Shown here: in pieces, positions 14,867 to 22,905 of the stretch | Layout of the letters: the number at the start of each line of letters is the position of its first letter | Position numbering within the stretch: the first letter of the stretch is position 1 | DNA from: a virus | Strand: one strand, 5' to 3' | Length of the DNA: 61,496 bases | UHGV virus genome: UHGV-1354897 | Translations under genes and position numbers: made by a program | Notes under the pieces: generated by a model | The model's database searches: none | What the model was told of the DNA's origin: nothing | Seen by the model: only the letters and a program-made list of their open reading frames with translations

Positions 14867-14953
14867 AGATAAGGGGTTGCGTGTCACAAAATCCTTTGGT
14901 ACATTTAACCCCGTTGGTAACAAACGAACCCATAACAATTCGGAGTGAAGAGA

Positions 14954-15757
14954 ATGAGCAACATTGAAGACAAAAAAGCTGCTGCCGCAGCCGCTGCTGC
15001 CGCCGCTGCAAAATCTGCTAAACCTGCAAAGAAAGAAGCTACTGTGAATGATGCAGAAGCTAAGAAAGCCGCAGCCGCTGAAGCTGCACGCGTAGCAAAA
15101 GAGAAAAAAGAAGCAGAGAAAAAAGCTGCCGCTGAAAAGAAACAAGCTGAAATCCGCACTGAAGCGGAAAACAAATTCAATGCGATTGCTAACGCTGCTG
15201 AAATCCTGAAAAACTCTTTGGCTACCGTCACCGACGAAAGCACTGTTGAACAGATCACGGAAGCGGAAACTCAGGGATCTGCAAACCTGAAGACCATTAA
15301 AGAAGCTCTGAAAGAGCTGAAAGCTGTCGTTAAGAAGTCTAAAGGTGAAGACCTGTCCGGTGCTGTAACTTCTGCTCAGGGCCTGGTGGATGGTCTGGAA
15401 GCTACTATTAAAGGCTTCAAAGACAAGATCCGTGCTGCAAAACAGGCAGAAAAAGAAGCGGAAAAAGCGCGCGCTAAAGAGCTTCGTGAGAAAGAAAAAG
15501 AAGCTAACCGTATGCCGGAACAGAACGGTGTTCGTCGTCCACAACCGGAAACTTCCTGCGGTCGTGCCTGGGCTCTGATGGACCAGATTAGCGCTACGCT
15601 GGGTCAGCCTGCTCCGATCTCTTATGTTCTGAACCTGGCTGGTCGCCATGGTCTGAACGAAGATACCATTAAAACTCAGTATGCACGCTGGAAGAAATTT
15701 AATGGTGTGACTGGTCGCGTACCTGTACCCGTACCGGAAGCCCTGAACGGCTTGTAA
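14954..15757 (+). CDS. Ala/Lys/Glu-rich low-complexity protein with a conserved C-terminal domain (paralog of 60060..60674)
   Basis: GGAG RBS before ATG at 14954; run of 12 consecutive Ala codons; C-terminus aligns with the 60060..60674 product. Confidence 0.65.
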   Translation: MSNIEDKKAAAAAAAAAAAKSAKPAKKEATVNDAEAKKAAAAEAARVAKEKKEAEKKAAAEKKQAEIRTEAENKFNAIANAAEILKNSLATVTDESTVEQITEAETQGSANLKTIKEALKELKAVVKKSKGEDLSGAVTSAQGLVDGLEATIKGFKDKIRAAKQAEKEAEKARAKELREKEKEANRMPEQNGVRRPQPETSCGRAWALMDQISATLGQPAPISYVLNLAGRHGLNEDTIKTQYARWKKFNGVTGRVPVPVPEALNGL

Positions 15758-15782
15758 TATCAAAACATATCACGTTATAATG

Positions 15783-15810
15783 AAAGCGCCCAATGAGGCG
15801 CTTTCTTTTT
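15783..15810 (+). terminator. intrinsic terminator
   Basis: Hairpin AAAGCGCC-CAATGA-GGCGCTTT followed by CTTTTT. Confidence 0.8.
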
Positions 15811-15826
15811 CACTAGAGGATTTAAG

Positions 15827-16534
15827 ATGAATATTAATCAACAAGCTCCCGAGTCTCGTTCTAAAGAAAACGATATGTATTTAGACGTGCATTCGGTATT
15901 CTCTACCATTCAGGGTGAAGGTCCATTCTGCGGTCAACCTGCGGTATTTGTGCGCCTTGCTGGATGTAACCTGCAATGCCCGGGCTGCGACACGGATTAT
16001 ACTGTTGGTCGTTCTCTTTACCACATTGTTGATATCATGCGTTTAATCGAAAGCCGTAAGCTGGAATCTGGCAATAGCACCTCACTTGTGGTTATCACTG
16101 GGGGCGAACCATTCCGCCAGCAAATTAACCCGTTTATTGAACAACTGTTATCACGCGGGTATCTTGTGCAGATTGAAACGAATGGGTCTATGCCTTTACC
16201 TAAGAACTTTTCCCAGCTACCTGTCATTGTATGCAGTCCTAAGACTTCAAAAATTCATCCTACTGTGCTGTACCGAGCAAACGCATTTAAATATGTGCTT
16301 AAAGCGTGCTGTGTAAACGTGGAAGACGGTTTACCGCTTCAGGCATTAGATCATCAAGCTACGCCATTTATCGCTAGACCTCCGAAGGGGTTCAAGGGTA
16401 AGATATATTTACAGCCAATGGACGAGCAGGATGAAGATCTTAACCACAGTAACATCCAAGCGGTTGTCCAAAGCTGTATGAAACACGGGTACACGTTGCA
16501 GCTTCAGGTTCACAAATATATCGGGGTGGAATAA
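15827..16534 (+). CDS. queE: 7-carboxy-7-deazaguanine synthase (radical SAM)
   Basis: QueE-like N-terminus FSTIQGEGPFCG and cysteine cluster CNLQCPGCDT. Confidence 0.8.
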   Translation: MNINQQAPESRSKENDMYLDVHSVFSTIQGEGPFCGQPAVFVRLAGCNLQCPGCDTDYTVGRSLYHIVDIMRLIESRKLESGNSTSLVVITGGEPFRQQINPFIEQLLSRGYLVQIETNGSMPLPKNFSQLPVIVCSPKTSKIHPTVLYRANAFKYVLKACCVNVEDGLPLQALDHQATPFIARPPKGFKGKIYLQPMDEQDEDLNHSNIQAVVQSCMKHGYTLQLQVHKYIGVE

Positions 16535-16536
16535 CT

Positions 16537-16797
16537 ATGAGCGAAAAATATATGTTTGAAAATCGTCCTATTGATGGTATGACCTGGAACAAACTCCAGG
16601 AAGCTGCTTGTCACGGTGCATTAGTTTGCACTAAAGAGCGCGATGTTGAAAAGGCCGGACCTGTTTATAAACTCCGCGACCCTTGTAATGAAGAATACTG
16701 CTTTGTGTTTAGCGATGAAGCTGAACAGTTTAGTAATCCTTACCGCACCGCTGATGAAGCTGCGGAAATGAGTCGTAAATATGCGGATCAATTATGA
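16537..16797 (+). CDS. hypothetical protein inside the deazaguanine cluster
   Basis: 86-aa ORF between queE and queC. Confidence 0.55.
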   Translation: MSEKYMFENRPIDGMTWNKLQEAACHGALVCTKERDVEKAGPVYKLRDPCNEEYCFVFSDEAEQFSNPYRTADEAAEMSRKYADQL

Positions 16798-16806
16798 GGT
16801 GGAATA

Positions 16807-17019
16807 ATGATCACTTTGGAAGAAGCGAAACAGCATCAGGAAATGATCACTGAGCTGGTAGAAAAACTTAATTCTGCAATTGCTCACGCTACTATGCAGG
16901 GTGTGCATGTTGAATTAGATATTAATCACGTTAGTACAATTGGAGCACGCAATCATCCGATTGTGATGTCAAACGTAACAATCAACCCTTGTGATATTAA
17001 AGGTGTAGAAGATGAATGA
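16807..17019 (+). CDS. hypothetical protein inside the deazaguanine cluster
   Basis: 70-aa ORF. Confidence 0.5.
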   Translation: MITLEEAKQHQEMITELVEKLNSAIAHATMQGVHVELDINHVSTIGARNHPIVMSNVTINPCDIKGVEDE

Positions 17020-17200
17020 AGAAACTGTAATTCTTATGCAGAAAATTCAACGTTTACAGGACGAGTTGAATGACGCTATTTGCCGCGCTGCATCAAAGAA
17101 AATACATTCGGAGCTTGAAATACACCAGCGCCGGGTAACATCTGAAGCGGTGGTGGAACAAGTAGTCATTAACCTCAATATTAGTCTTAAAGGTTTCTAA
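17012..17200 (+). CDS. hypothetical protein inside the deazaguanine cluster
   Basis: 62-aa ORF, coiled-coil-like. Confidence 0.5.
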   Translation: MNEETVILMQKIQRLQDELNDAICRAASKKIHSELEIHQRRVTSEAVVEQVVINLNISLKGF

Positions 17201-17201
17201 A

Positions 17202-17924
17202 ATGAACAAATTAGATAAACTGGTATTCCCTGTAAAAAATCATAACTCCGCCGTTGTGGTCCTGTCTGGCGGTCAGGACAGCGTGACCTGTTTAGGTCTT
17301 GCACTTAATAACTATGATAAGGTTTACGCTATTGGTTTTGCATACGGTCAACGTCACACTGTGGAATTAGCTTGCGCTGAACAGATATGTAAAGAACACG
17401 ATGTCCCATTTGTTGTCTTTGAATTACCTGCTTTGAAACAGATTGGCAATAGCGCTTTAATTGGGAACGAAGGTGATGTTAACGAACATCACGAACAGCA
17501 CAACAACCTTCCAGCAAGCTTTGTGCCAAACCGTAATGCTCTTTTCCTGACTACCGCGCACGCCTACGCGCAGAAAGTTGGTGCCCGATATGTGGTTACA
17601 GGCGTCTGTGAAACAGACTATAGCGGTTATCCGGATTGCCGCCAGCAGTTTGTAGACTTGCTTGAAGCTACGTTAAACGTTGGATATGAAACAGATATTC
17701 ATTTCGTTACCCCGCTTATGCGTTTAAATAAAGCAGAAACGTTTGAGCTGGCGGATAAGGTTGGCTTCTTAACCACAGTAATTGAACAGTCCCATACTTG
17801 CTATAACGGTGTCCGTCGCACTCTGCATGACTGGGGCTATGGTTGCGGTGAATGCCCTGCGTGCAAACTGCGTGCTAAAGGGTACAGTGAATTTATGGAT
17901 AACGCTTACAGCAAACACGTTTGA
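17202..17924 (+). CDS. queC: 7-cyano-7-deazaguanine (preQ0) synthase
   Basis: PP-loop VVLSGGQDS and C-terminal zinc site CYNG...CGECPAC; standalone, no fused amidotransferase domain. Confidence 0.85.
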   Translation: MNKLDKLVFPVKNHNSAVVVLSGGQDSVTCLGLALNNYDKVYAIGFAYGQRHTVELACAEQICKEHDVPFVVFELPALKQIGNSALIGNEGDVNEHHEQHNNLPASFVPNRNALFLTTAHAYAQKVGARYVVTGVCETDYSGYPDCRQQFVDLLEATLNVGYETDIHFVTPLMRLNKAETFELADKVGFLTTVIEQSHTCYNGVRRTLHDWGYGCGECPACKLRAKGYSEFMDNAYSKHV

Positions 17925-18044
17925 TCTTACCGCGAAAACCGCACCGCTAGCGCATTGTTTAGGGTGCGGGAACCCAACTATACTACTAAACCTTTTAAAC
18001 CCAACAACCAGCGAATAACGCTGTTAAAACTGGAGAACAAAAGT

Positions 18045-18524
18045 ATGAAATTTATCGTTGCTTATCTGGCTGCAATTACATTCGTAAACCTGGGCTTTTC
18101 CTACCTTCCAATGCTCAATACGCCTCTTGGCGTGGTCCCGATGATGGCTTTCTTTGTAGGTATTATCTTTGTGTTGCGTGACTACGCACAGCGTAACGCT
18201 GGTAAAGGCGTTATCCCTGCAATGATTGTGGGTTGCATCCTTAGCTGGGTATTTGGGGATCCTGCTGTTGTAGTTGCATCCGTTGCATCCTTTGCTCTTA
18301 GCGAGTTTGCGGACTATGCGGTATACACGATTACTAAGAAGCCGTTTCATCAACGTGTATTTATTAGCTCTTTGGTAGCTGTACCGATTGACTCCATTGT
18401 GTTCTTAAGTATTATAGGTATTGTTAATCCGGGATCAATGGTAGCAATGAGCTTAAGTAAGTTCACAGCATCTGCTATTCTTTGGGTTGTTTACGAAGTT
18501 CATTCACGTACAGCGAGAGCGTAA
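18045..18524 (+). CDS. putative queuosine-precursor transporter-like membrane protein (YhhQ/DUF165-like)
   Basis: Multi-pass hydrophobic protein directly after queC; family assignment from context and general resemblance. Confidence 0.45.
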   Translation: MKFIVAYLAAITFVNLGFSYLPMLNTPLGVVPMMAFFVGIIFVLRDYAQRNAGKGVIPAMIVGCILSWVFGDPAVVVASVASFALSEFADYAVYTITKKPFHQRVFISSLVAVPIDSIVFLSIIGIVNPGSMVAMSLSKFTASAILWVVYEVHSRTARA

Positions 18525-18526
18525 AA

Positions 18527-19114
18527 ATGAAAGATAATTTGAATAAGATTTGGCACCAACACGACGGTAAAGGGATGCCTATTTTTCTTCGTAATGAGAA
18601 GTTTGAAGTTCGTTTGCGCAACGGCACACACGTTAAGAATTTATTAGATGGATGGGATTGGGCTATGGAAGGGCGTTCAGCTATGGATGAAAATAGCCCT
18701 TATAAAGTTCAAGATATTATAGCCTGGCGATATATCGTTGCGGATGATTACGTCAAACAAGCTAGCGAAAACACTCGCTCCGGATTGTACCATCAAGCTT
18801 CTGAAACAAGCATAAGTAATACATTTAATGGTGCAGTTTTTACGAAATATGAACCATCTAAAATTCCCATGAATAAATATCAGAAAATTATTTATGGTAA
18901 AGATCAAAACGGCAATGTTGTAAAGTGCATCGTGGATGTGTATGATGTCTTGGAAGCTTGGAAGACAACTAACCCAGCTTTGCAGCATTTAATTAAAAAA
19001 GCGTTGCAGCCGGGCGAACGCGGTCATAAAAGTCTGGTAGAAGACTTGAAAGATATTATTGCATCCGCACAGCGTGCATTAGAAATTGAACAGTCTAAAG
19101 AGGTATTAAAATGA
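18527..19114 (+). CDS. hypothetical protein inside the deazaguanine cluster (candidate tailoring enzyme)
   Basis: 196-aa ORF between the transporter-like gene and queD; no motif recognised. Confidence 0.6.
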   Translation: MKDNLNKIWHQHDGKGMPIFLRNEKFEVRLRNGTHVKNLLDGWDWAMEGRSAMDENSPYKVQDIIAWRYIVADDYVKQASENTRSGLYHQASETSISNTFNGAVFTKYEPSKIPMNKYQKIIYGKDQNGNVVKCIVDVYDVLEAWKTTNPALQHLIKKALQPGERGHKSLVEDLKDIIASAQRALEIEQSKEVLK

Positions 19115-19647
19115 GCTATACAGTAATTCGTTCACATGAAATTTGCGCCGGACATCGTGTTGTAGGTCACGAAAGCAAATGTCGCCACCTCCACGGTCAC
19201 AACTATAAGTTTCACTTTAAGGTTGCTCCGAAGCATGGATGCGGAAAAGTAGTGACACGAGGAAAGCTGATTGAGGACGGTCTGGACAGCGTTGGGCGCG
19301 TGATTGACTTTAGTGTGGTTAAAACTACGCTCTGCCAGTGGCTAGAAGATAACTGGGATCATAAGTTTCTACATTGGGAAAAGGATATGTTGATCAACGG
19401 ACTGCAATGTTGTATTGAAACGGATACTCAATCTGAACGCGGTTGGCCTACTTTCGGTGAAGGGGATGAAGATCTTAAAGCTTTTAACGATTCACTGGTA
19501 TCTTTGCCGTTCAACCCAACTGCGGAAAACCTAGCTGCATATATGGTTGAAGTGATTGGTCCGCTACTGCTTGACGAACATGGCGTTCAACTTGTAGAAT
19601 GCACCATCGAAGAAACTTCGAAATGTCACGTAAACTATAGCCTGTAA
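19111..19647 (+). CDS. queD: 6-carboxy-5,6,7,8-tetrahydropterin synthase
   Basis: Motif CAGHRVVGHESKCRHLHGHNY typical of QueD/PTPS; longer than bacterial QueD. Confidence 0.75.
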   Translation: MSYTVIRSHEICAGHRVVGHESKCRHLHGHNYKFHFKVAPKHGCGKVVTRGKLIEDGLDSVGRVIDFSVVKTTLCQWLEDNWDHKFLHWEKDMLINGLQCCIETDTQSERGWPTFGEGDEDLKAFNDSLVSLPFNPTAENLAAYMVEVIGPLLLDEHGVQLVECTIEETSKCHVNYSL

Positions 19648-19678
19648 TATGACCACATTAACAAGGAAACTGCAAACC

Positions 19679-20287
19679 ATGTCAAAATTTACTATTAATG
19701 ACGAAAGTATTCAATTTGAAATTACTCGCGCGGTGCGCGCTTTACTAACTCGAATTGAAAATTGCACTGAATTACGTCCAGGTTTGGAAGAGACTCCATA
19801 TCGTGTCGCTAAAGCCTATGCTACATGGTTCGGCGGTTATAATGTGGATATTGCTGGTCTGTTTAAGACCTTTGAAGACGGGGCGGAAGGTTCAAATGAA
19901 ATGGTCATCGTCCGTGATATTCCAGTTTATAGCCATTGTGAACACCATATAGCCCCTATTATCGGTCGCGCTGTTGTGGGGTATGTTCCTAACGGTCGCA
20001 TTGTGGGGCTCAGTAAACTGTCTCGCGTTGTGGATGCTTTTAGTCGTCGACTGCAAGTTCAGGAACGTCTTACTAACCAGATTGCTGACGCTATCCAGGA
20101 ACACCTGAATCCGAAAGCTGTATGTGTTTATATTGATGCCAAGCATATGTGCATGGAGTCGCGCGGTGTTAAGCAGGTATGCGGCAGCTCTACTATTACC
20201 AAAGCGTTCCGGGGCGCTACAGAACTGGAGCATGGTAGCGATATTGGTAAAGAATGGCGCCGGGAGTTCCTCGAAGCTTGTAAATAA
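19679..20287 (+). CDS. folE: GTP cyclohydrolase I
   Basis: FolE signature YSHCEHHIAPIIGRAVVGYVPNGRIVGLSKLSRVV; AAGGAA RBS favours ATG at 19679 over 19649. Confidence 0.85.
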   Translation: MSKFTINDESIQFEITRAVRALLTRIENCTELRPGLEETPYRVAKAYATWFGGYNVDIAGLFKTFEDGAEGSNEMVIVRDIPVYSHCEHHIAPIIGRAVVGYVPNGRIVGLSKLSRVVDAFSRRLQVQERLTNQIADAIQEHLNPKAVCVYIDAKHMCMESRGVKQVCGSSTITKAFRGATELEHGSDIGKEWRREFLEACK

Positions 20288-20304
20288 TAGATAGCTTTAC
20301 AGAT

Positions 20305-20343
20305 CAAGCCCATATCGGTCATAATACTGGTATGGGCTTTTTA
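20305..20343 (+). terminator. intrinsic terminator candidate
   Basis: Stem CAAGCCCATA...TATGGGCTT with long loop followed by TTTT. Confidence 0.5.
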
Positions 20344-20358
20344 GTCATTGGAGGAAAT

Positions 20359-20565
20359 ATGGTAAGACAATACTTTTTCAACGTTCGAGCTGTAGAAAAA
20401 GGTACTTTCAGAGTTCTGTTATGTATGGACGGTATTGCTGAAAGCAGTAACGCAAAACAAATTCATGCGGATCTGCATGTTAGAGTTGAACAGATCTTAA
20501 GCGAGCAATGCTTTAAGAAAGAAAATTATCTCATTGAAGTAGTCGCTTTAAACAACGTGGAGTAA
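20359..20565 (+). CDS. hypothetical protein
   Basis: GGAGGA RBS before ATG at 20359. Confidence 0.55.
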   Translation: MVRQYFFNVRAVEKGTFRVLLCMDGIAESSNAKQIHADLHVRVEQILSEQCFKKENYLIEVVALNNVE

Positions 20566-20568
20566 GAA

Positions 20569-21489
20569 ATGAACGTTTTTATGGCAGCAGTTTACACAAA
20601 CGGATATATGCCCGGGCAGCAGCGCTATGAAAAGCTGTCCGAGCATGAGAAAAATATCACGCGCAATCTGCCCCATATTTTGGAATCATACCACTACGTT
20701 GGACGTCAGAAGTATGTTGATCAAATGCGTGCGGATGGGGCTAAAGTGTTTCTCGACTCCGGTGCATTCTCCGCGCACTCGTTAGGTGCTCACATTGATA
20801 TTGTTGAATACTGCGAATACATCAAGCGCAACAAAGACATCCTTCGCGTAGAAGATGGTGCGGTGATGGCGTCAGTGCTCGATGGTATCGGTGATCCGTT
20901 GCAGACCTACCGTAACCAACTTGAAATGGAAGCACGCGGTGCTAAACCGTTACCTTGCTTTCACTTTGGGGAGGACTTCCGCTATCTTGAATACTACATG
21001 AAGAACTACGAATATATCACCATCGGGGGCATGGTAGGACGTTCCACAGACACGCTTAAAACTTGGCTGGACCGCATGTGGGACAAATACATTTGCGACG
21101 GTAGCGGACGTGCTAAGATTAAACTTCATGCGTTTGGTATTACGTCCACAACCATTATGGAACGTTATCCGTGGTATAGCTGTGACTCTTCCTCCTGGAT
21201 TCAAGCAGCAGCGTTTGGAAGTGTGGTTACTCCTCCGTGGGGCCCAATGCGCGTATCAGATAAGTCACCGGACCGCCATCATTTTGGTAAGCATGTTTCA
21301 ACATTAACTGAAATTGAACAAGACGCTGTCCTTAAATACCTTGAGCAAAACGGTTTCACTTACGAACGTTTATCAACAATCTATGAATCACGTGCTGCCT
21401 TCAACTTATGGGCGTATGGTGTAATTGCTACAAACATTAACGCTACCCATGACGGCACATTCCGTGATCGTGTAATGGAGTTATTTTGA
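20569..21489 (+). CDS. dpdA: DpdA-like 7-deazaguanine DNA transglycosylase (TGT superfamily)
   Basis: TGT-like motif FLDSGAFS; sits directly after folE/queD in the modification cluster. Confidence 0.7.
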   Translation: MNVFMAAVYTNGYMPGQQRYEKLSEHEKNITRNLPHILESYHYVGRQKYVDQMRADGAKVFLDSGAFSAHSLGAHIDIVEYCEYIKRNKDILRVEDGAVMASVLDGIGDPLQTYRNQLEMEARGAKPLPCFHFGEDFRYLEYYMKNYEYITIGGMVGRSTDTLKTWLDRMWDKYICDGSGRAKIKLHAFGITSTTIMERYPWYSCDSSSWIQAAAFGSVVTPPWGPMRVSDKSPDRHHFGKHVSTLTEIEQDAVLKYLEQNGFTYERLSTIYESRAAFNLWAYGVIATNINATHDGTFRDRVMELF

Positions 21490-21716
21490 TGGCTAACTTA
21501 AGAAGACCAAAAGGCAAACGTAAATATACTCACACAGGCGTAAGAATTAATTATTACGGTGAAAACAGAGTAGTATTTCTCCACAAGACACCTAAGCAGT
21601 GGCAGGATCCGTCAGGTACATGGTTTAATGCACAAGGAAAACAAATGGGGCTTTACGGATACCCTCCAACCTGCGAATTAGATTTAACCACAATTAGAGC
21701 AATCGAGGATCGCTAA
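21486..21716 (+). CDS. hypothetical protein
   Basis: 76-aa ORF overlapping the dpdA stop. Confidence 0.5.
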   Translation: MMANLRRPKGKRKYTHTGVRINYYGENRVVFLHKTPKQWQDPSGTWFNAQGKQMGLYGYPPTCELDLTTIRAIEDR

Positions 21717-21952
21717 TGACACCAGTATGTGAAGAATATATTACTTCTCAATCTAAAGCTGGGGGTAAAGCGGTAGGTCGTGTTGCTATCGCTAAGTTAA
21801 CAAACGCGGGCTATGAACCAAAAGTCACCCCGCCTCCCCCTGAGCCCTGGATATGGGAGAAAAACGGGGGTCGTATTATAGCCATTACATCGTATATGGG
21901 ACCTTTTAGATTAAAGATTGAGTATCTTGTAGACTTAGATGGGGACTCCTAA
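21716..21952 (+). CDS. hypothetical protein
   Basis: 78-aa ORF. Confidence 0.5.
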   Translation: MTPVCEEYITSQSKAGGKAVGRVAIAKLTNAGYEPKVTPPPPEPWIWEKNGGRIIAITSYMGPFRLKIEYLVDLDGDS

Positions 21953-22905
21953 TGCTTGACGCTCTTAAATTTGTTCAAGGCTCCGTCGCTAAAAAGGAAC
22001 TGGTAGAAGGGCTTACCAGCTTTCTTATCCGTGATGGGCAGGTACAGGGCTTTAACGGTGTTATTGCACTGGGTAGTCCTATTGAGTTGGATATTGATTG
22101 CAAGCCCGAAGCTGGGCCTATGATTAAAGCTATTTCCAACTGCGATGAAACAGTGCAGCTAACAATGATGGCTAACGGTAAGTTAAATATCAAGTCCGGT
22201 CCGTTTCGTGTTGCTATACGCTGCATTGATAAAGAAACGCCGCACGTATTTCCTGAAGGTGATTTGTACGAAATAGACGGCGCTCGCTTCGTGCATGGTG
22301 TAAAGTCCGTTGCTCCATTTGTTGGGTCCGATGCTTCCCGTCCGTGGGCTTGCGGTATCCTGATTAATAACGGTAGCCTGTTTGCTACAAATAACGTCAC
22401 TATTGCGGAATACTGGTTTGGTAATCAGTTCCCTATTGATTGCATAATACCTTCCGTTGCAATTAAAGAAATACTGCGTATTAAAGCTAACCCGACGCAT
22501 ATTCAGGTTAGCAAGAATAACGTAACGTTTCATTATCCGGAAGGTCGCTGGTTGCGGACACAGCTTATTGATGCGGAATGGCCCGATATACGTCGTATTT
22601 TAAATGTTCAATGCAATGCACATCCTGTTGATCCAGGTCTTTTTGAAGGCTTGCATAAAATTAAACCGTTCGCAGAAGACCGACCGCGTGTATATATTGA
22701 AAACGGTCTAGCCCGTACTCACTATGATGATGCAGAAGGTGCAAGCTTCGTATTACAGGACCGCACTATAACGGGAGTGTACAATATTGACATCCTGCTA
22801 TTGCTTGAAAATGTGGTTAAGACGGCGGACTTTAGTTTATATCCGCAACCTTGCGCATTCTTTGGGGAAAACCTTCGCGGTGTATTAATTGGAGAACGTG
22901 TATGA
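21952..22905 (+). CDS. DNA polymerase sliding clamp-like protein (DnaN-like)
   Basis: C-terminal segment LIDAEWPDIRRIL resembles the beta-clamp segment LVDGRFPDYRRVLP (recalled from memory); placed directly upstream of the polymerase. Confidence 0.5.
   Translation: MLDALKFVQGSVAKKELVEGLTSFLIRDGQVQGFNGVIALGSPIELDIDCKPEAGPMIKAISNCDETVQLTMMANGKLNIKSGPFRVAIRCIDKETPHVFPEGDLYEIDGARFVHGVKSVAPFVGSDASRPWACGILINNGSLFATNNVTIAEYWFGNQFPIDCIIPSVAIKEILRIKANPTHIQVSKNNVTFHYPEGRWLRTQLIDAEWPDIRRILNVQCNAHPVDPGLFEGLHKIKPFAEDRPRVYIENGLARTHYDDAEGASFVLQDRTITGVYNIDILLLLENVVKTADFSLYPQPCAFFGENLRGVLIGERV

What the first reader, a model, noticed from the sequence alone, without database searches (positions are those of the whole stretch)
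18527..19114. Unassigned 196-aa ORF inside the deazaguanine cluster: candidate tailoring or accessory enzyme
It is tightly packed between the transporter-like gene and queD and overlaps the queD start, so it is co-transcribed with the modification genes. I recognise no catalytic motif. Phage 7-deazaguanine systems are known to vary through small added enzymes, which makes this the most likely place for an undescribed activity.
Basis: inference. Interest (0 to 1): 0.6.

Follow-up and report, generated by a model that had tools for sequence, protein, structure and literature searches.

The report
Two-domain phage protein, gp1.7-like module
A real, conserved gene inside a phage's DNA-modification operon encodes a two-part protein; its best-conserved half is a common phage module, possibly related to a T7 nucleotide-kinase domain, that occurs mostly in phages without this modification, so it is unlikely to be a new base-tailoring enzyme.

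Summary
The ORF is real: 18527..19114 (+), 195 aa. It starts 2 nt after the yhhQ stop and overlaps the queD start (ATGA). It keeps this position in all full-length homologs examined and is under purifying selection. The window is a Seuratvirus (Queuovirinae), whose DNA is known to carry dPreQ0.

The protein has three parts:
- a rare small beta N-domain (aa 1-75, motif W-x-HDG-x-G-x-P ... W-x-W ... WRY);
- a hypervariable, near-neutral linker (aa 76-114);
- a very conserved C-domain (aa 115-195, beta-hairpin plus three helices, AF2 pLDDT about 90).

No Pfam, NCBIfam or PDB match exists, and every database name is "hypothetical protein".

The C-domain occurs in 719 phage records, mostly phages with no deazaguanine genes. 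It is found alone or fused to variable N-termini (wHTH, zinc ribbons, BRCT). Iggy shows no homolog near its dPreQ0 cluster, and R7M carries its copy 31 kb from its predicted dG+ cluster. CAjan DNA contains only dPreQ0. A tailoring role is therefore not supported.

Profile-profile and fold comparisons give a borderline link to DUF3310, the conserved domain of the T7 gp1.7 nucleotide kinase.

Best guess: a general phage nucleotide-binding or kinase-like accessory module, here possibly supporting guanine-nucleotide supply. Interest is moderate to low.

The parts
18515..18519 (+). Shine-Dalgarno-like GAGAG, 7 nt upstream of the ATG
   Evidence: read directly from the sequence
18527..19114 (+). ORF X: 195 aa plus stop; conserved Seuratvirus hypothetical protein (PHROG 23361)
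   Evidence: annotated as a hypothetical protein in WildeMaa (bas23_0041), Seurat (gp37) and others
18527..18751 (+). N-domain, aa 1-75: small beta domain with motif W-x-HDG-x-G-x-P ... W-x-W ... WRY. It is a rare repeat-type module.
   Evidence: AF2 strands with pLDDT about 70. Invariant columns. Only 19 hits in 1.84 billion representatives, most with 2-3 tandem copies. dN/dS 0.05-0.34.
18752..18868 (+). Linker, aa 76-114: hypervariable and indel-rich, predicted disordered
   Evidence: pLDDT below 50 for residues 80-112. Alignment gaps and replacements. dN/dS 0.3-0.95.
18869..19111 (+). C-domain, aa 115-195: beta-hairpin plus three helices. Motif: NKY ... VDVYDVL.AW..NPALQHLIKKALQPGERGHK...DL.DII.SA.RA. 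Widespread phage module, possibly a remote relative of DUF3310.
   Evidence: AF2 mean pLDDT 89.7. Found in 719 phage records. 17 same-family BFVD hits at E<=1e-3. hhalign to DUF3310 gives P 3e-4 to 2e-3 through the sister subfamily. dN/dS 0.02-0.29.
19111..19114 (+). ATGA overlap of the ORF X stop with the queD start (translational coupling signature)
   Evidence: the same 4-nt overlap occurs in relatives
18042..18524 (+). Context: yhhQ-like preQ0 transporter gene. The ATG at 18042 is the start annotated in relatives; the ORF finder lists TTG 17955.
   Evidence: Pfam Vut_1 E 3.9e-5; WildeMaa annotation
19111..19647 (+). Context: queD (6-carboxytetrahydropterin synthase)
   Evidence: Pfam PTPS E 4.6e-22
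15782..15805 (+). Context: intrinsic terminator upstream of queE. It marks the start of the transcription unit that contains ORF X.
   Evidence: 9-bp stem with 6 GC pairs and a T-run; no further + strand terminator-like site from 15944 to 22000

Best explanation
ORF X encodes a modular accessory protein of the phage early/replication gene set. It is not a base-tailoring enzyme.

Shown:
- It is a real gene, transcribed in the same direction as queE-queC-yhhQ-queD-folE-dpdA and packed tightly among them.
- It consists of a small beta N-domain, an unconstrained flexible linker, and a strongly constrained C-domain (beta-hairpin plus three helices).
- The C-domain belongs to a large phage family that is absent from Pfam. 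The family occurs alone or attached to very different partner domains, mostly in phages with no deazaguanine genes.

Inferred:
- The C-domain is a distant relative of DUF3310, the conserved core of the T7 gp1.7 nucleotide kinase.
- Its invariant K/R/H and D residues (K-Y, D-x-Y-D, H-x-x-K-K, R-G-H-K, D-L-x-D) bind a phosphate-bearing ligand, most likely a (deoxy)nucleoside monophosphate. It either phosphorylates that ligand as gp1.7 does with dGMP and dTMP, or simply binds it.
- In this operon such an activity would help keep up the guanine-nucleotide pool. FolE draws on that pool to make preQ0, which replaces roughly a quarter to a third of the genome's guanines.
- The N-domain is an optional targeting or binding module: Hafnia phage yong3 and a natural yhhQ::X fusion lack it.
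For: Gene reality and operon:
-.

Domain structure:
- AF2 full-length model and C-domain model with pLDDT 89.7.
- The linker is variable and near-neutral.

The C-domain is promiscuous and not tied to deazaguanine:
- 719 phage records carry it, including Jerseyvirus/Kagunavirus 76-aa stand-alone proteins, Rogue1 gp08, and an Aeromonas LAh_7 BRCT fusion.
- Its metagenomic neighbours are Sak, YqaJ and SSB.
- DpdA occurs in only 237 records, with a different host spread.
- R7M carries its copy far from the cluster, and Iggy has none near its cluster.

The C-domain is the selected part:
- Phage yong3 has a 111-aa C-only version at the same position.
- A natural in-frame yhhQ::linker+C fusion exists.
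- Phage 9g gp7 has a different N-terminus and the same C-domain inside its cluster.

Link to DUF3310:
- T7 gp1.7 residues 122-184 are DUF3310.
- A sister subfamily of the C-domain starts with HSHY, as DUF3310 does. It is unambiguously homologous to our subfamily (hhalign 99.8%, E 6e-28).
- That subfamily aligns colinearly over 78 columns with DUF3310 (P 2.9e-4, probability 41%).
- The pooled family scores 25.0, against 10.3 +/- 1.9 (maximum 15.0) for 150 column shuffles.
- Foldseek on BFVD hits entries annotated as nucleotide kinase at probability 0.99.
- Both families share the same architecture: a variable N-terminus, often with zinc ribbons, followed by a constant C-terminal domain.
- gp1.7 phosphorylates dTMP and dGMP (stated in PMC11897194 and PMC10700055, citing Tran et al. 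2008 and 2012).
Against: Against the DUF3310 link:
- Pfam's own DUF3310 model matches no member of the family, even at E<=10.
- Our subfamily alone against DUF3310 is not significant (P 0.09).
- hhalign probabilities are only 14-41%, and the link rests on a transitive step.
- The Foldseek matches to 'nucleotide kinase' entries have E 0.07-0.16, and I could not confirm that those entries are DUF3310.
- The H of the HY motif is K in this protein.

Against the kinase inference:
- Kinase activity is documented for T7 gp1.7 only. I could not check which residues are catalytic, because the primary paper is not held.

Against a purely general role:
- A C-domain gene sits inside the cluster in three E. 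coli-group lineages: Seuratvirus, yong3 and Nonagvirus. That leaves room for a cluster-linked role.
Confidence: 0.4

Rival explanations
1. Non-enzymatic adaptor or DNA-associated factor. The constant C-domain is an interaction module that docks onto a conserved partner: DNA, the replisome or clamp, or a host protein. The variable N-terminal parts (the W-HDG beta domain here; wHTH, zinc ribbon or BRCT elsewhere) supply specificity.
For: - The domain is mostly C-terminal, behind 0-270 aa of unrelated sequence.
- It is fused to wHTH/MarR-like domains, Cys-rich ribbons and BRCT.
- It sits in replication modules next to clamp and polymerase genes and next to SSB, Sak and YqaJ.
- No catalytic fold was detected.
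- The N-type and C-type domains recur together in both orders (P0124, P0126, P0095).
Against: - About 20 invariant charged or polar residues in a 75-aa domain, kept across hosts from Enterobacteria to Alteromonas and in metagenomes. That fits a universal small-molecule or nucleic-acid ligand better than a lineage-specific protein partner.
- No DNA-binding fold was recognised in the C-domain itself.
Confidence: 0.3
2. A dedicated helper of the deazaguanine system. Candidate roles: a tailoring enzyme, a DpdA cofactor, or a factor acting with the adjacent YhhQ in preQ0 or guanine salvage.
For: - The gene keeps the position between yhhQ and queD, with a 4-nt overlap, in all full-length homologs examined.
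- A C-domain protein also lies inside the 9g dG+ cluster.
- It is probably co-transcribed with the cluster.
- The CAjan cluster is reported to contain six genes of unknown function that have not been tested genetically (PMC7544227).
Against: - Most C-domain carriers have no DpdA.
- R7M and Iggy uncouple the gene from the cluster.
- CAjan DNA holds dPreQ0 only, and the minimal set FolE/QueD/QueE/QueC/DpdA is reported to suffice for dPreQ0, for example in Rosebush (PMC6884629).
- Deleting the neighbour yhhQ does not change modification (PMC7544227).
- There is no similarity to any Que/Dpd family in Pfam or NCBIfam.
Confidence: 0.12
3. Host-takeover or anti-defence protein, or merely a defence trigger. 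It would be a small early protein that binds a host factor. The model is DUF3310 proteins, which are cytotoxic on overexpression in mycobacteria, and T7 gp1.7, which activates Avs5.
For: - Stand-alone versions lie among small early genes.
- DUF3310 proteins are highly cytotoxic in overexpression screens (PMC10700055).
- gp1.7 activates EfAvs5 (PMC11897194).
Against: - Anti-defence proteins usually evolve fast and have narrow distribution. This domain is among the most conserved parts of the operon (dN/dS 0.02-0.29) and is spread across many host genera.
- The one specific candidate checked, Ksap1 of SECphi18, is unrelated.
Confidence: 0.15
4. Spurious ORF or non-functional remnant.
For: None beyond the absence of annotation.
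Against: - Conserved start, length class and position in dozens of genomes.
- Strong purifying selection on both domains.
- A confident fold prediction for the C-domain.
Confidence: 0.01

Closest known systems
DUF3310 (Pfam PF11753), the conserved C-terminal core of the T7 gp1.7 nucleotide kinase
   Same: - Size about 60-80 aa, with a helical core.
- The same order of motifs: [H/K]-Y, acidic-x-hydrophobic-acidic at the start of helix 1, a K-containing helix 2, a G/K-rich loop, and D-[LV]-x-x-A opening helix 3.
- Colinear hhalign alignment over 74-79 columns.
- The same architecture: a variable N-terminus, often Cys-rich, followed by a constant C-terminal domain.
- The same kind of genomic setting, early or DNA-metabolism regions of phages.
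   Different: - Not recognised by the Pfam model.
- Only borderline profile-profile support (P 3e-4 to 2e-3 via the HSHY subfamily; not significant for this protein's own subfamily).
- Carries an inserted beta-hairpin and lacks the extra T-x-E-Q-F helix of gp1.7.
- The HY motif is KY here.
- Kinase activity is untested.
PHROG 23361 (full length) and PHROGs 2452, 35158, 13223, 18443, 17613 (C-domain only)
   Same: Direct sequence membership: E 6.7e-102 for 23361, and 2e-30 to 5e-13 for the others over aa 86-192.
   Different: All are of unknown function. 17613 carries an unverified 'ATPase' label. None gives a mechanism.
Enterobacteria phage 9g gp7 (9g_00007, 253 aa) and its Nonagvirus orthologs
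   Same: The same C-domain (44% identity over aa 93-192). It also lies inside a 7-deazaguanine cluster of a Queuovirinae phage, between queE and gat-queC.
   Different: An unrelated 170-aa N-terminal part. A different position in the cluster. The phage makes dG+ rather than dPreQ0.
Known phage 7-deazaguanine pathway and tailoring enzymes (FolE, QueD, QueE, QueC, Gat-QueC, QueF-like, DpdA; further enzymes in PMC10516641, which I did not read)
   Same: Only gene neighbourhood and probable co-transcription.
   Different: No sequence or fold similarity to any of them. The distribution is largely independent of DpdA.
Multi-copy 'W-HDG' repeat proteins from metagenomes (P0123-P0135)
   Same: The N-domain matches their repeats (domain E 1e-4 to 1e-6). 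P0124 and P0126 combine a C-like domain with 2-3 such repeats in the reverse order.
   Different: Those proteins carry 2-3 tandem copies and other partner domains (DUF6378, DUF3850/ASCH). All are uncharacterised.

Membership tests
DUF3310 / T7 gp1.7-like (PF11753) | Match to the Pfam PF11753 model at or above its gathering score (24 bits) | tested here: not met
   There was no PF11753 hit for this protein at E<=1, for 65 family members at E<=0.1, or for six divergent members at E<=10. T7 gp1.7 itself scores 81.5 bits.
DUF3310 / T7 gp1.7-like (PF11753) | Profile-profile similarity over the whole domain | tested here: inconclusive
   - Our subfamily against DUF3310: P 0.09.
- HSHY sister subfamily: P 2.9e-4, probability 41%, 78 columns.
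- Pooled family: P 5e-4, score 25.0, against a shuffle null of 10.3 +/- 1.9.
- With a reduced 8-sequence DUF3310 set: P 0.002.
DUF3310 / T7 gp1.7-like (PF11753) | Fold similarity to gp1.7-type proteins | tested here: inconclusive
   Foldseek on BFVD gave two entries annotated as nucleotide kinase, at probability 0.99 but E 0.07-0.16 and TM about 0.55. I had no quota left to model gp1.7 itself, and afdb50 was unavailable.
DUF3310 / T7 gp1.7-like (PF11753) | dNMP kinase activity (dGMP and dTMP to the diphosphates) | not testable with these tools
   Biochemical. It is reported only for T7 gp1.7 (cited in PMC11897194 and PMC10700055).
7-deazaguanine biosynthesis and tailoring enzymes (Que/Dpd families) | Sequence membership in any QueC/QueD/QueE/FolE/QueF/TGT-type family or other curated enzyme family | tested here: not met
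   Pfam's best hit was E 0.015, below cutoff and unrelated. NCBIfam gave nothing relevant. The PDB sequence profile search gave nothing.
7-deazaguanine biosynthesis and tailoring enzymes (Que/Dpd families) | Co-distribution with DpdA and the preQ0 genes across phages | tested here: not met
   - 719 records carry the C-domain and 237 carry DpdA, with different host spreads.
- R7M and Iggy uncouple the two.
- The full-length two-domain form is restricted to Seuratvirus-like genomes.
7-deazaguanine biosynthesis and tailoring enzymes (Que/Dpd families) | A modified nucleoside beyond dPreQ0 in phages that carry the gene | not testable with these tools
   Literature only. CAjan DNA has dPreQ0 at 70,628 per 10^6 nt, and dADG, dG+, dPreQ1 and dQ each below 6 (PMC6884629).
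PHROG 23361 | Full-length HMM match | tested here: met
   E 6.7e-102, residues 1-195 against profile positions 1-181 of 181. The family has no assigned function.
MazG-like all-alpha NTP pyrophosphohydrolases | Sequence or fold match to the four-helix bundle with the E-x-x-E ... E-x-x-D metal site | tested here: not met

The most novel reading that the evidence does not exclude
The C-domain family defines a large unrecognised branch of gp1.7-like, possibly metal-independent, nucleotide kinases. It comprises at least 700 phage genomes and over a thousand metagenomic clusters, and it is absent from Pfam. In E. coli-group Queuovirinae the family has been recruited into the deazaguanine operon, next to the preQ0 transporter and queD/folE. 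There it would fuel or recycle guanine nucleotides for the mass production of preQ0, for example by re-phosphorylating (d)GMP derived from host nucleic acids while DpdA swaps out guanine.
Probability: 0.2. Interest if true: 0.6.

Novelty: new variant of a known kind. Interest (0 to 1): 0.35.

Why it matters
Published work on CAjan reports six genes of unknown function in the Seuratvirus deazaguanine cluster, and this is one of them. Showing that its constrained part is a general phage module, not specific to deazaguanine, removes it from the shortlist of candidate new base-tailoring enzymes. It redirects experiments toward nucleotide binding or kinase assays.

The analysis also brings to light a large, highly conserved phage domain family that Pfam does not cover. 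If the borderline link to DUF3310/gp1.7 holds, hundreds of "hypothetical proteins" in Jerseyvirus, T1-like, chi-like and Queuovirinae phages would gain a testable functional hypothesis. It would also add candidates for recognition by Avs5-type sensors, since gp1.7 activates EfAvs5.

Tried and rejected
- **Family libraries.** Pfam, NCBIfam and the PDB sequence profile gave nothing for the full protein or for 65 C-domain relatives.
- **Full-length fold search.** Foldseek against the PDB with the full-length model (pLDDT 62) found nothing at E<=1e-3.
- **First DUF3310 tests.** The family alignment against the single gp1.7 sequence, and against close T7 relatives, was negative. A signal appeared only after adding diverse DUF3310 sequences and the HSHY subfamily.
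- **Circular-shift control.** It was uninformative, because local alignment still finds the unshifted block.
[quoted passage not shown] I suspected it was a C-domain member because Kagunavirus copies lie near a phosphoesterase. Its sequence is unrelated, and the SECphi18 genome has no C- or N-domain match.
- **DUF6378.** The N-terminus of P0123 shows no significant similarity to the C-domain or to DUF3310.
- **Paralogs.** The window holds no paralog of either domain and no DUF3310 gene.
- **Extra ORF in L026.** The 107-aa ORF next to the yhhQ::X fusion is unrelated.
- **Primary gp1.7 paper.** The biochemistry paper (PMC3436134) is not held.

Full report
**What the window is.** The 4.6-kb stretch around the finding is 90-95% identical at the nucleotide level to about 35 Escherichia phages of the genus Seuratvirus (Queuovirinae), for example WildeMaa, GottfriedDienst, Seurat and slur01. 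The local gene order is: helicase, two unknown genes, queE (15827-16534), three small ORFs, queC (17202-17924), yhhQ (ends 18524), ORF X (18527-19114), queD (19111-19647), folE (19649-20287), a small ORF, dpdA (20569-21489), two small ORFs, clamp, DNA polymerase. CAjan, a Seuratvirus, replaces about a third of its guanines with dPreQ0, and no other deazaguanine was detected (PMC6884629). Its 12-gene cluster is described as having six genes of unknown function. Only folE, queC, dpdA and yhhQ have been deleted (PMC7544227).

- ORF X starts at ATG 18527, two bases after the yhhQ stop, with GAGAG 7 nt upstream. It ends at TGA 19112-19114, overlapping the queD ATG.
- The protein is 195 aa.
- A strong terminator lies just upstream of queE (15782-15805). 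No terminator-like site follows on the + strand from 15944 to 22000. Co-transcription is plausible, though inferred.
- The gene is real. Sixty full-length cluster representatives at 48-95% identity all begin MKDNL.
- The most divergent homologs checked (48-55% identity) occupy the same position, with the same overlap onto queD.
- dN/dS against three orthologs is 0.05-0.34 for aa 1-75, 0.02-0.29 for aa 115-195, and 0.3-0.95 for the stretch between them.

**Anatomy.**
- The alignment and the AlphaFold models show two folded parts joined by a disordered, indel-rich linker.
- The N-domain (aa 1-75) is a small beta module with invariant W9, H12-D13-G14, G16, P18, W43, W45 and W67-R68-Y69.
- The C-domain (aa 115-195) was modelled with 65 relatives at mean pLDDT 89.7. 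It is a beta-hairpin followed by three helices.
- It carries about two dozen invariant residues, many of them charged: K-Y, D-x-Y-D, H-x-x-K-K, R-G-H-K, D-L-x-D and S-A-x-R-A.

**No known family matches.**
- Pfam and NCBIfam give nothing.
- A profile search of all PDB sequences gives nothing.
- PHROGs places the whole protein in family 23361, and the C-domain alone in five further families. All have unknown function except one with an unverified 'ATPase' label.
- Every database name for this protein, for 9g gp7 and for the stand-alone forms is "hypothetical protein".

**The C-domain is a widespread module, not a deazaguanine-specific one.**
- tblastn finds it in 719 phage records. Only 34 of them cover the whole protein.
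- The carriers are mostly Salmonella (367) and Escherichia (192) phages: Jerseyvirus and Kagunavirus (76-aa stand-alone proteins), T1-like Rogue1 (gp08, 99 aa), Edwardsiella, Vibrio, Aeromonas, Acinetobacter and others.
- A DpdA homolog occurs in only 237 records, with a different spread: Mycobacterium 56, Escherichia 41, Pseudomonas 32, Salmonella 3.
- In the protein collection the domain is usually C-terminal, behind 0-270 aa of unrelated sequence, and sometimes N-terminal.
- Partner domains include MarR-like wHTH, Cys-rich ribbons and a BRCT domain in Aeromonas phage LAh_7.
- In metagenomic contigs, the neighbours of stand-alone forms are ordinary early or recombination genes: Sak, YqaJ and SSB.

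**Pattern within Queuovirinae.**
- Seuratviruses carry N-domain + linker + C-domain between yhhQ and queD.
- Hafnia phage yong3 carries only linker + C-domain (111 aa) at the same position.
- One metagenomic variant carries an in-frame fusion of the first 54 residues of YhhQ to linker + C-domain.
- Nonagviruses (9g, JenK1) carry a different 170-aa N-terminus plus the C-domain, between queE and gat-queC.
- Alteromonas phage R7M has a contiguous dG+ gene cluster (modification predicted) and keeps its C-domain protein (ORF14, HMM E 9e-19) 31 kb away, next to an endonuclease and the small terminase.
- Pseudomonas phage Iggy, which is experimentally dPreQ0-modified (PMC10484667), has no homolog of either domain within 9 kb of dpdA.
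- The C-domain is thus the part that selection keeps, and it is dispensable for making dPreQ0 DNA in at least one relative.

**The N-domain is rare.**
- An exhaustive profile search of 1.84 billion representative proteins found 19 hits at E<=1e-3.
- Apart from Seuratvirus orthologs, most of these proteins have two or three tandem copies of the same W-x-H-x-G ... V-x-V-R-L-R-D-G ... W-x-W ... D-I-V-A-W-R unit.
- The copies stand alone or follow DUF6378, DUF3850/ASCH, or a domain that matches the C-domain HMM: P0126 (E 2.7e-5) and P0124 (E 4.4e-4).
- A few C-domain proteins from other lineages also carry an N-like domain: P0095, P0072 and P0094.
- The two domain types therefore recur together in both orders, which suggests they cooperate. 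Neither has a known function.

**Relation to DUF3310 and T7 gp1.7.**
- By eye, the motif order resembles DUF3310. I confirmed that DUF3310 is the conserved core (aa 122-184) of the T7 gp1.7 nucleotide kinase. Many T7-like phages carry an 82-145-aa protein that is little more than this domain.
- The first tests were negative.
- R7M ORF14 begins MKHSHY, the DUF3310 hallmark. A search seeded with it returned 120 further, mostly stand-alone, proteins of this "HSHY" subfamily.
- That subfamily is unambiguously homologous to the subfamily of ORF X (hhalign 99.8%, E 6e-28). It aligns colinearly over 78 columns with a DUF3310 profile (P 2.9e-4, probability 41%; P 0.002 with a reduced profile).
- The pooled family scores 25.0, against 10.3 +/- 1.9 (maximum 15.0) for 150 column-shuffled controls and 11.9 for the reversed profile.
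- Foldseek of the C-domain model against viral predicted structures returns 17 same-family hits. Below them, at probability 0.99 but E 0.07-0.16, come two entries annotated as nucleotide kinase.
- Pfam's own DUF3310 model never fires on any member.
- I rate remote homology as somewhat more likely than not. It is not established, and I do not file the protein as a DUF3310 member.

**Mechanism.**
- What is shown: a co-oriented, tightly packed, selected gene; two folded domains with a free linker; and a C-domain shared with hundreds of phages that do not modify guanine.
- What is inferred: the C-domain binds a phosphate-bearing ligand through its invariant basic and acidic residues. If the gp1.7 link is real, it phosphorylates or at least binds (d)NMPs.
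- gp1.7 converts dGMP and dTMP to the diphosphates and is thought to maintain dNTP balance (PMC11897194, PMC10700055).
- In an operon whose first enzyme, FolE, consumes one GTP per preQ0, support of the guanine-nucleotide pool is a sensible role for a phage that replaces a quarter to a third of its guanines. It would also explain why the same module is useful in phages without the pathway.
- The main rival is a non-catalytic docking or DNA-associated module with exchangeable specificity domains.
- A dedicated tailoring or DpdA-helper role is the least supported reading. It is not excluded, because the gene has never been deleted.

**Verdict.** The "tailoring enzyme" reading is not supported, and an indirect accessory role remains possible. 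The finding is a new, divergent variant of a poorly known phage domain type rather than something categorically new. Interest is moderate to low (0.35).

Noticed in passing
window 15752-15805 (+): A strong intrinsic terminator (9-bp stem, 6 GC pairs, T-run) at 15782-15805. It directly follows a promoter-like site with a 10/12 match at 15752-15781, just upstream of queE. No + strand terminator-like site follows from 15944 to 22000, so queE through dpdA and beyond look like one transcription unit.
   Followed up: partly
window 14945-15757 (+): A 270-aa ORF rich in Ala, Lys and Glu, with a run of 11 alanines near the N-terminus. It is conserved as a hypothetical protein in relatives (bas23_0048). 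Its function is unknown.
   Followed up: no
window 16807-17019 and 17012-17200 (+): Two adjacent small ORFs between queE and queC resemble each other weakly (BLASTP E 4e-5, 42% over 26 aa) and are probably tandem paralogs. Relatives carry one to three small ORFs here.
   Followed up: partly
window 17955-18524 (+): The ORF finder starts yhhQ at TTG 17955 (189 aa). Relatives annotate the ATG that corresponds to 18042 (about 160 aa), which leaves a gap of about 117 nt after queC.
   Followed up: no
window 20569-21489 (+): The DpdA gene, annotated as such in relatives and 99.7% identical to CAjan DpdA, gets no Pfam hit at E<=1.
   Followed up: no
L026:4001-4821 (metagenomic Seuratvirus-like contig): A natural in-frame deletion fuses the first 54 residues of YhhQ to the linker and C-domain of ORF X (166 aa, seen on 4 contigs). 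An unrelated 107-aa ORF is inserted before queD.
   Followed up: partly
L010:9178-9711: A relative carries an HNH_3 homing-endonuclease-type gene inserted between the small ORF after dpdA and the clamp gene. It is absent from the window.
   Followed up: no
L006:3630-6383 (Aeromonas phage LAh_7): The gene annotated 'phosphoadenosine phosphosulfate reductase' matches the Pfam Dam methyltransferase family (E 8.6e-27). The gene annotated 'DNA ligase/BRCT' has no ligase domain: it consists of a C-domain, a Cys-rich middle part and a BRCT domain.
   Followed up: partly
L018:33278-33502 (SECphi18 gp51, which is Ksap1): The 74-aa Avs2 trigger Ksap1 is annotated 'acid phosphatase' in RefSeq. Its sequence is unrelated to the family studied here.
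   Followed up: yes
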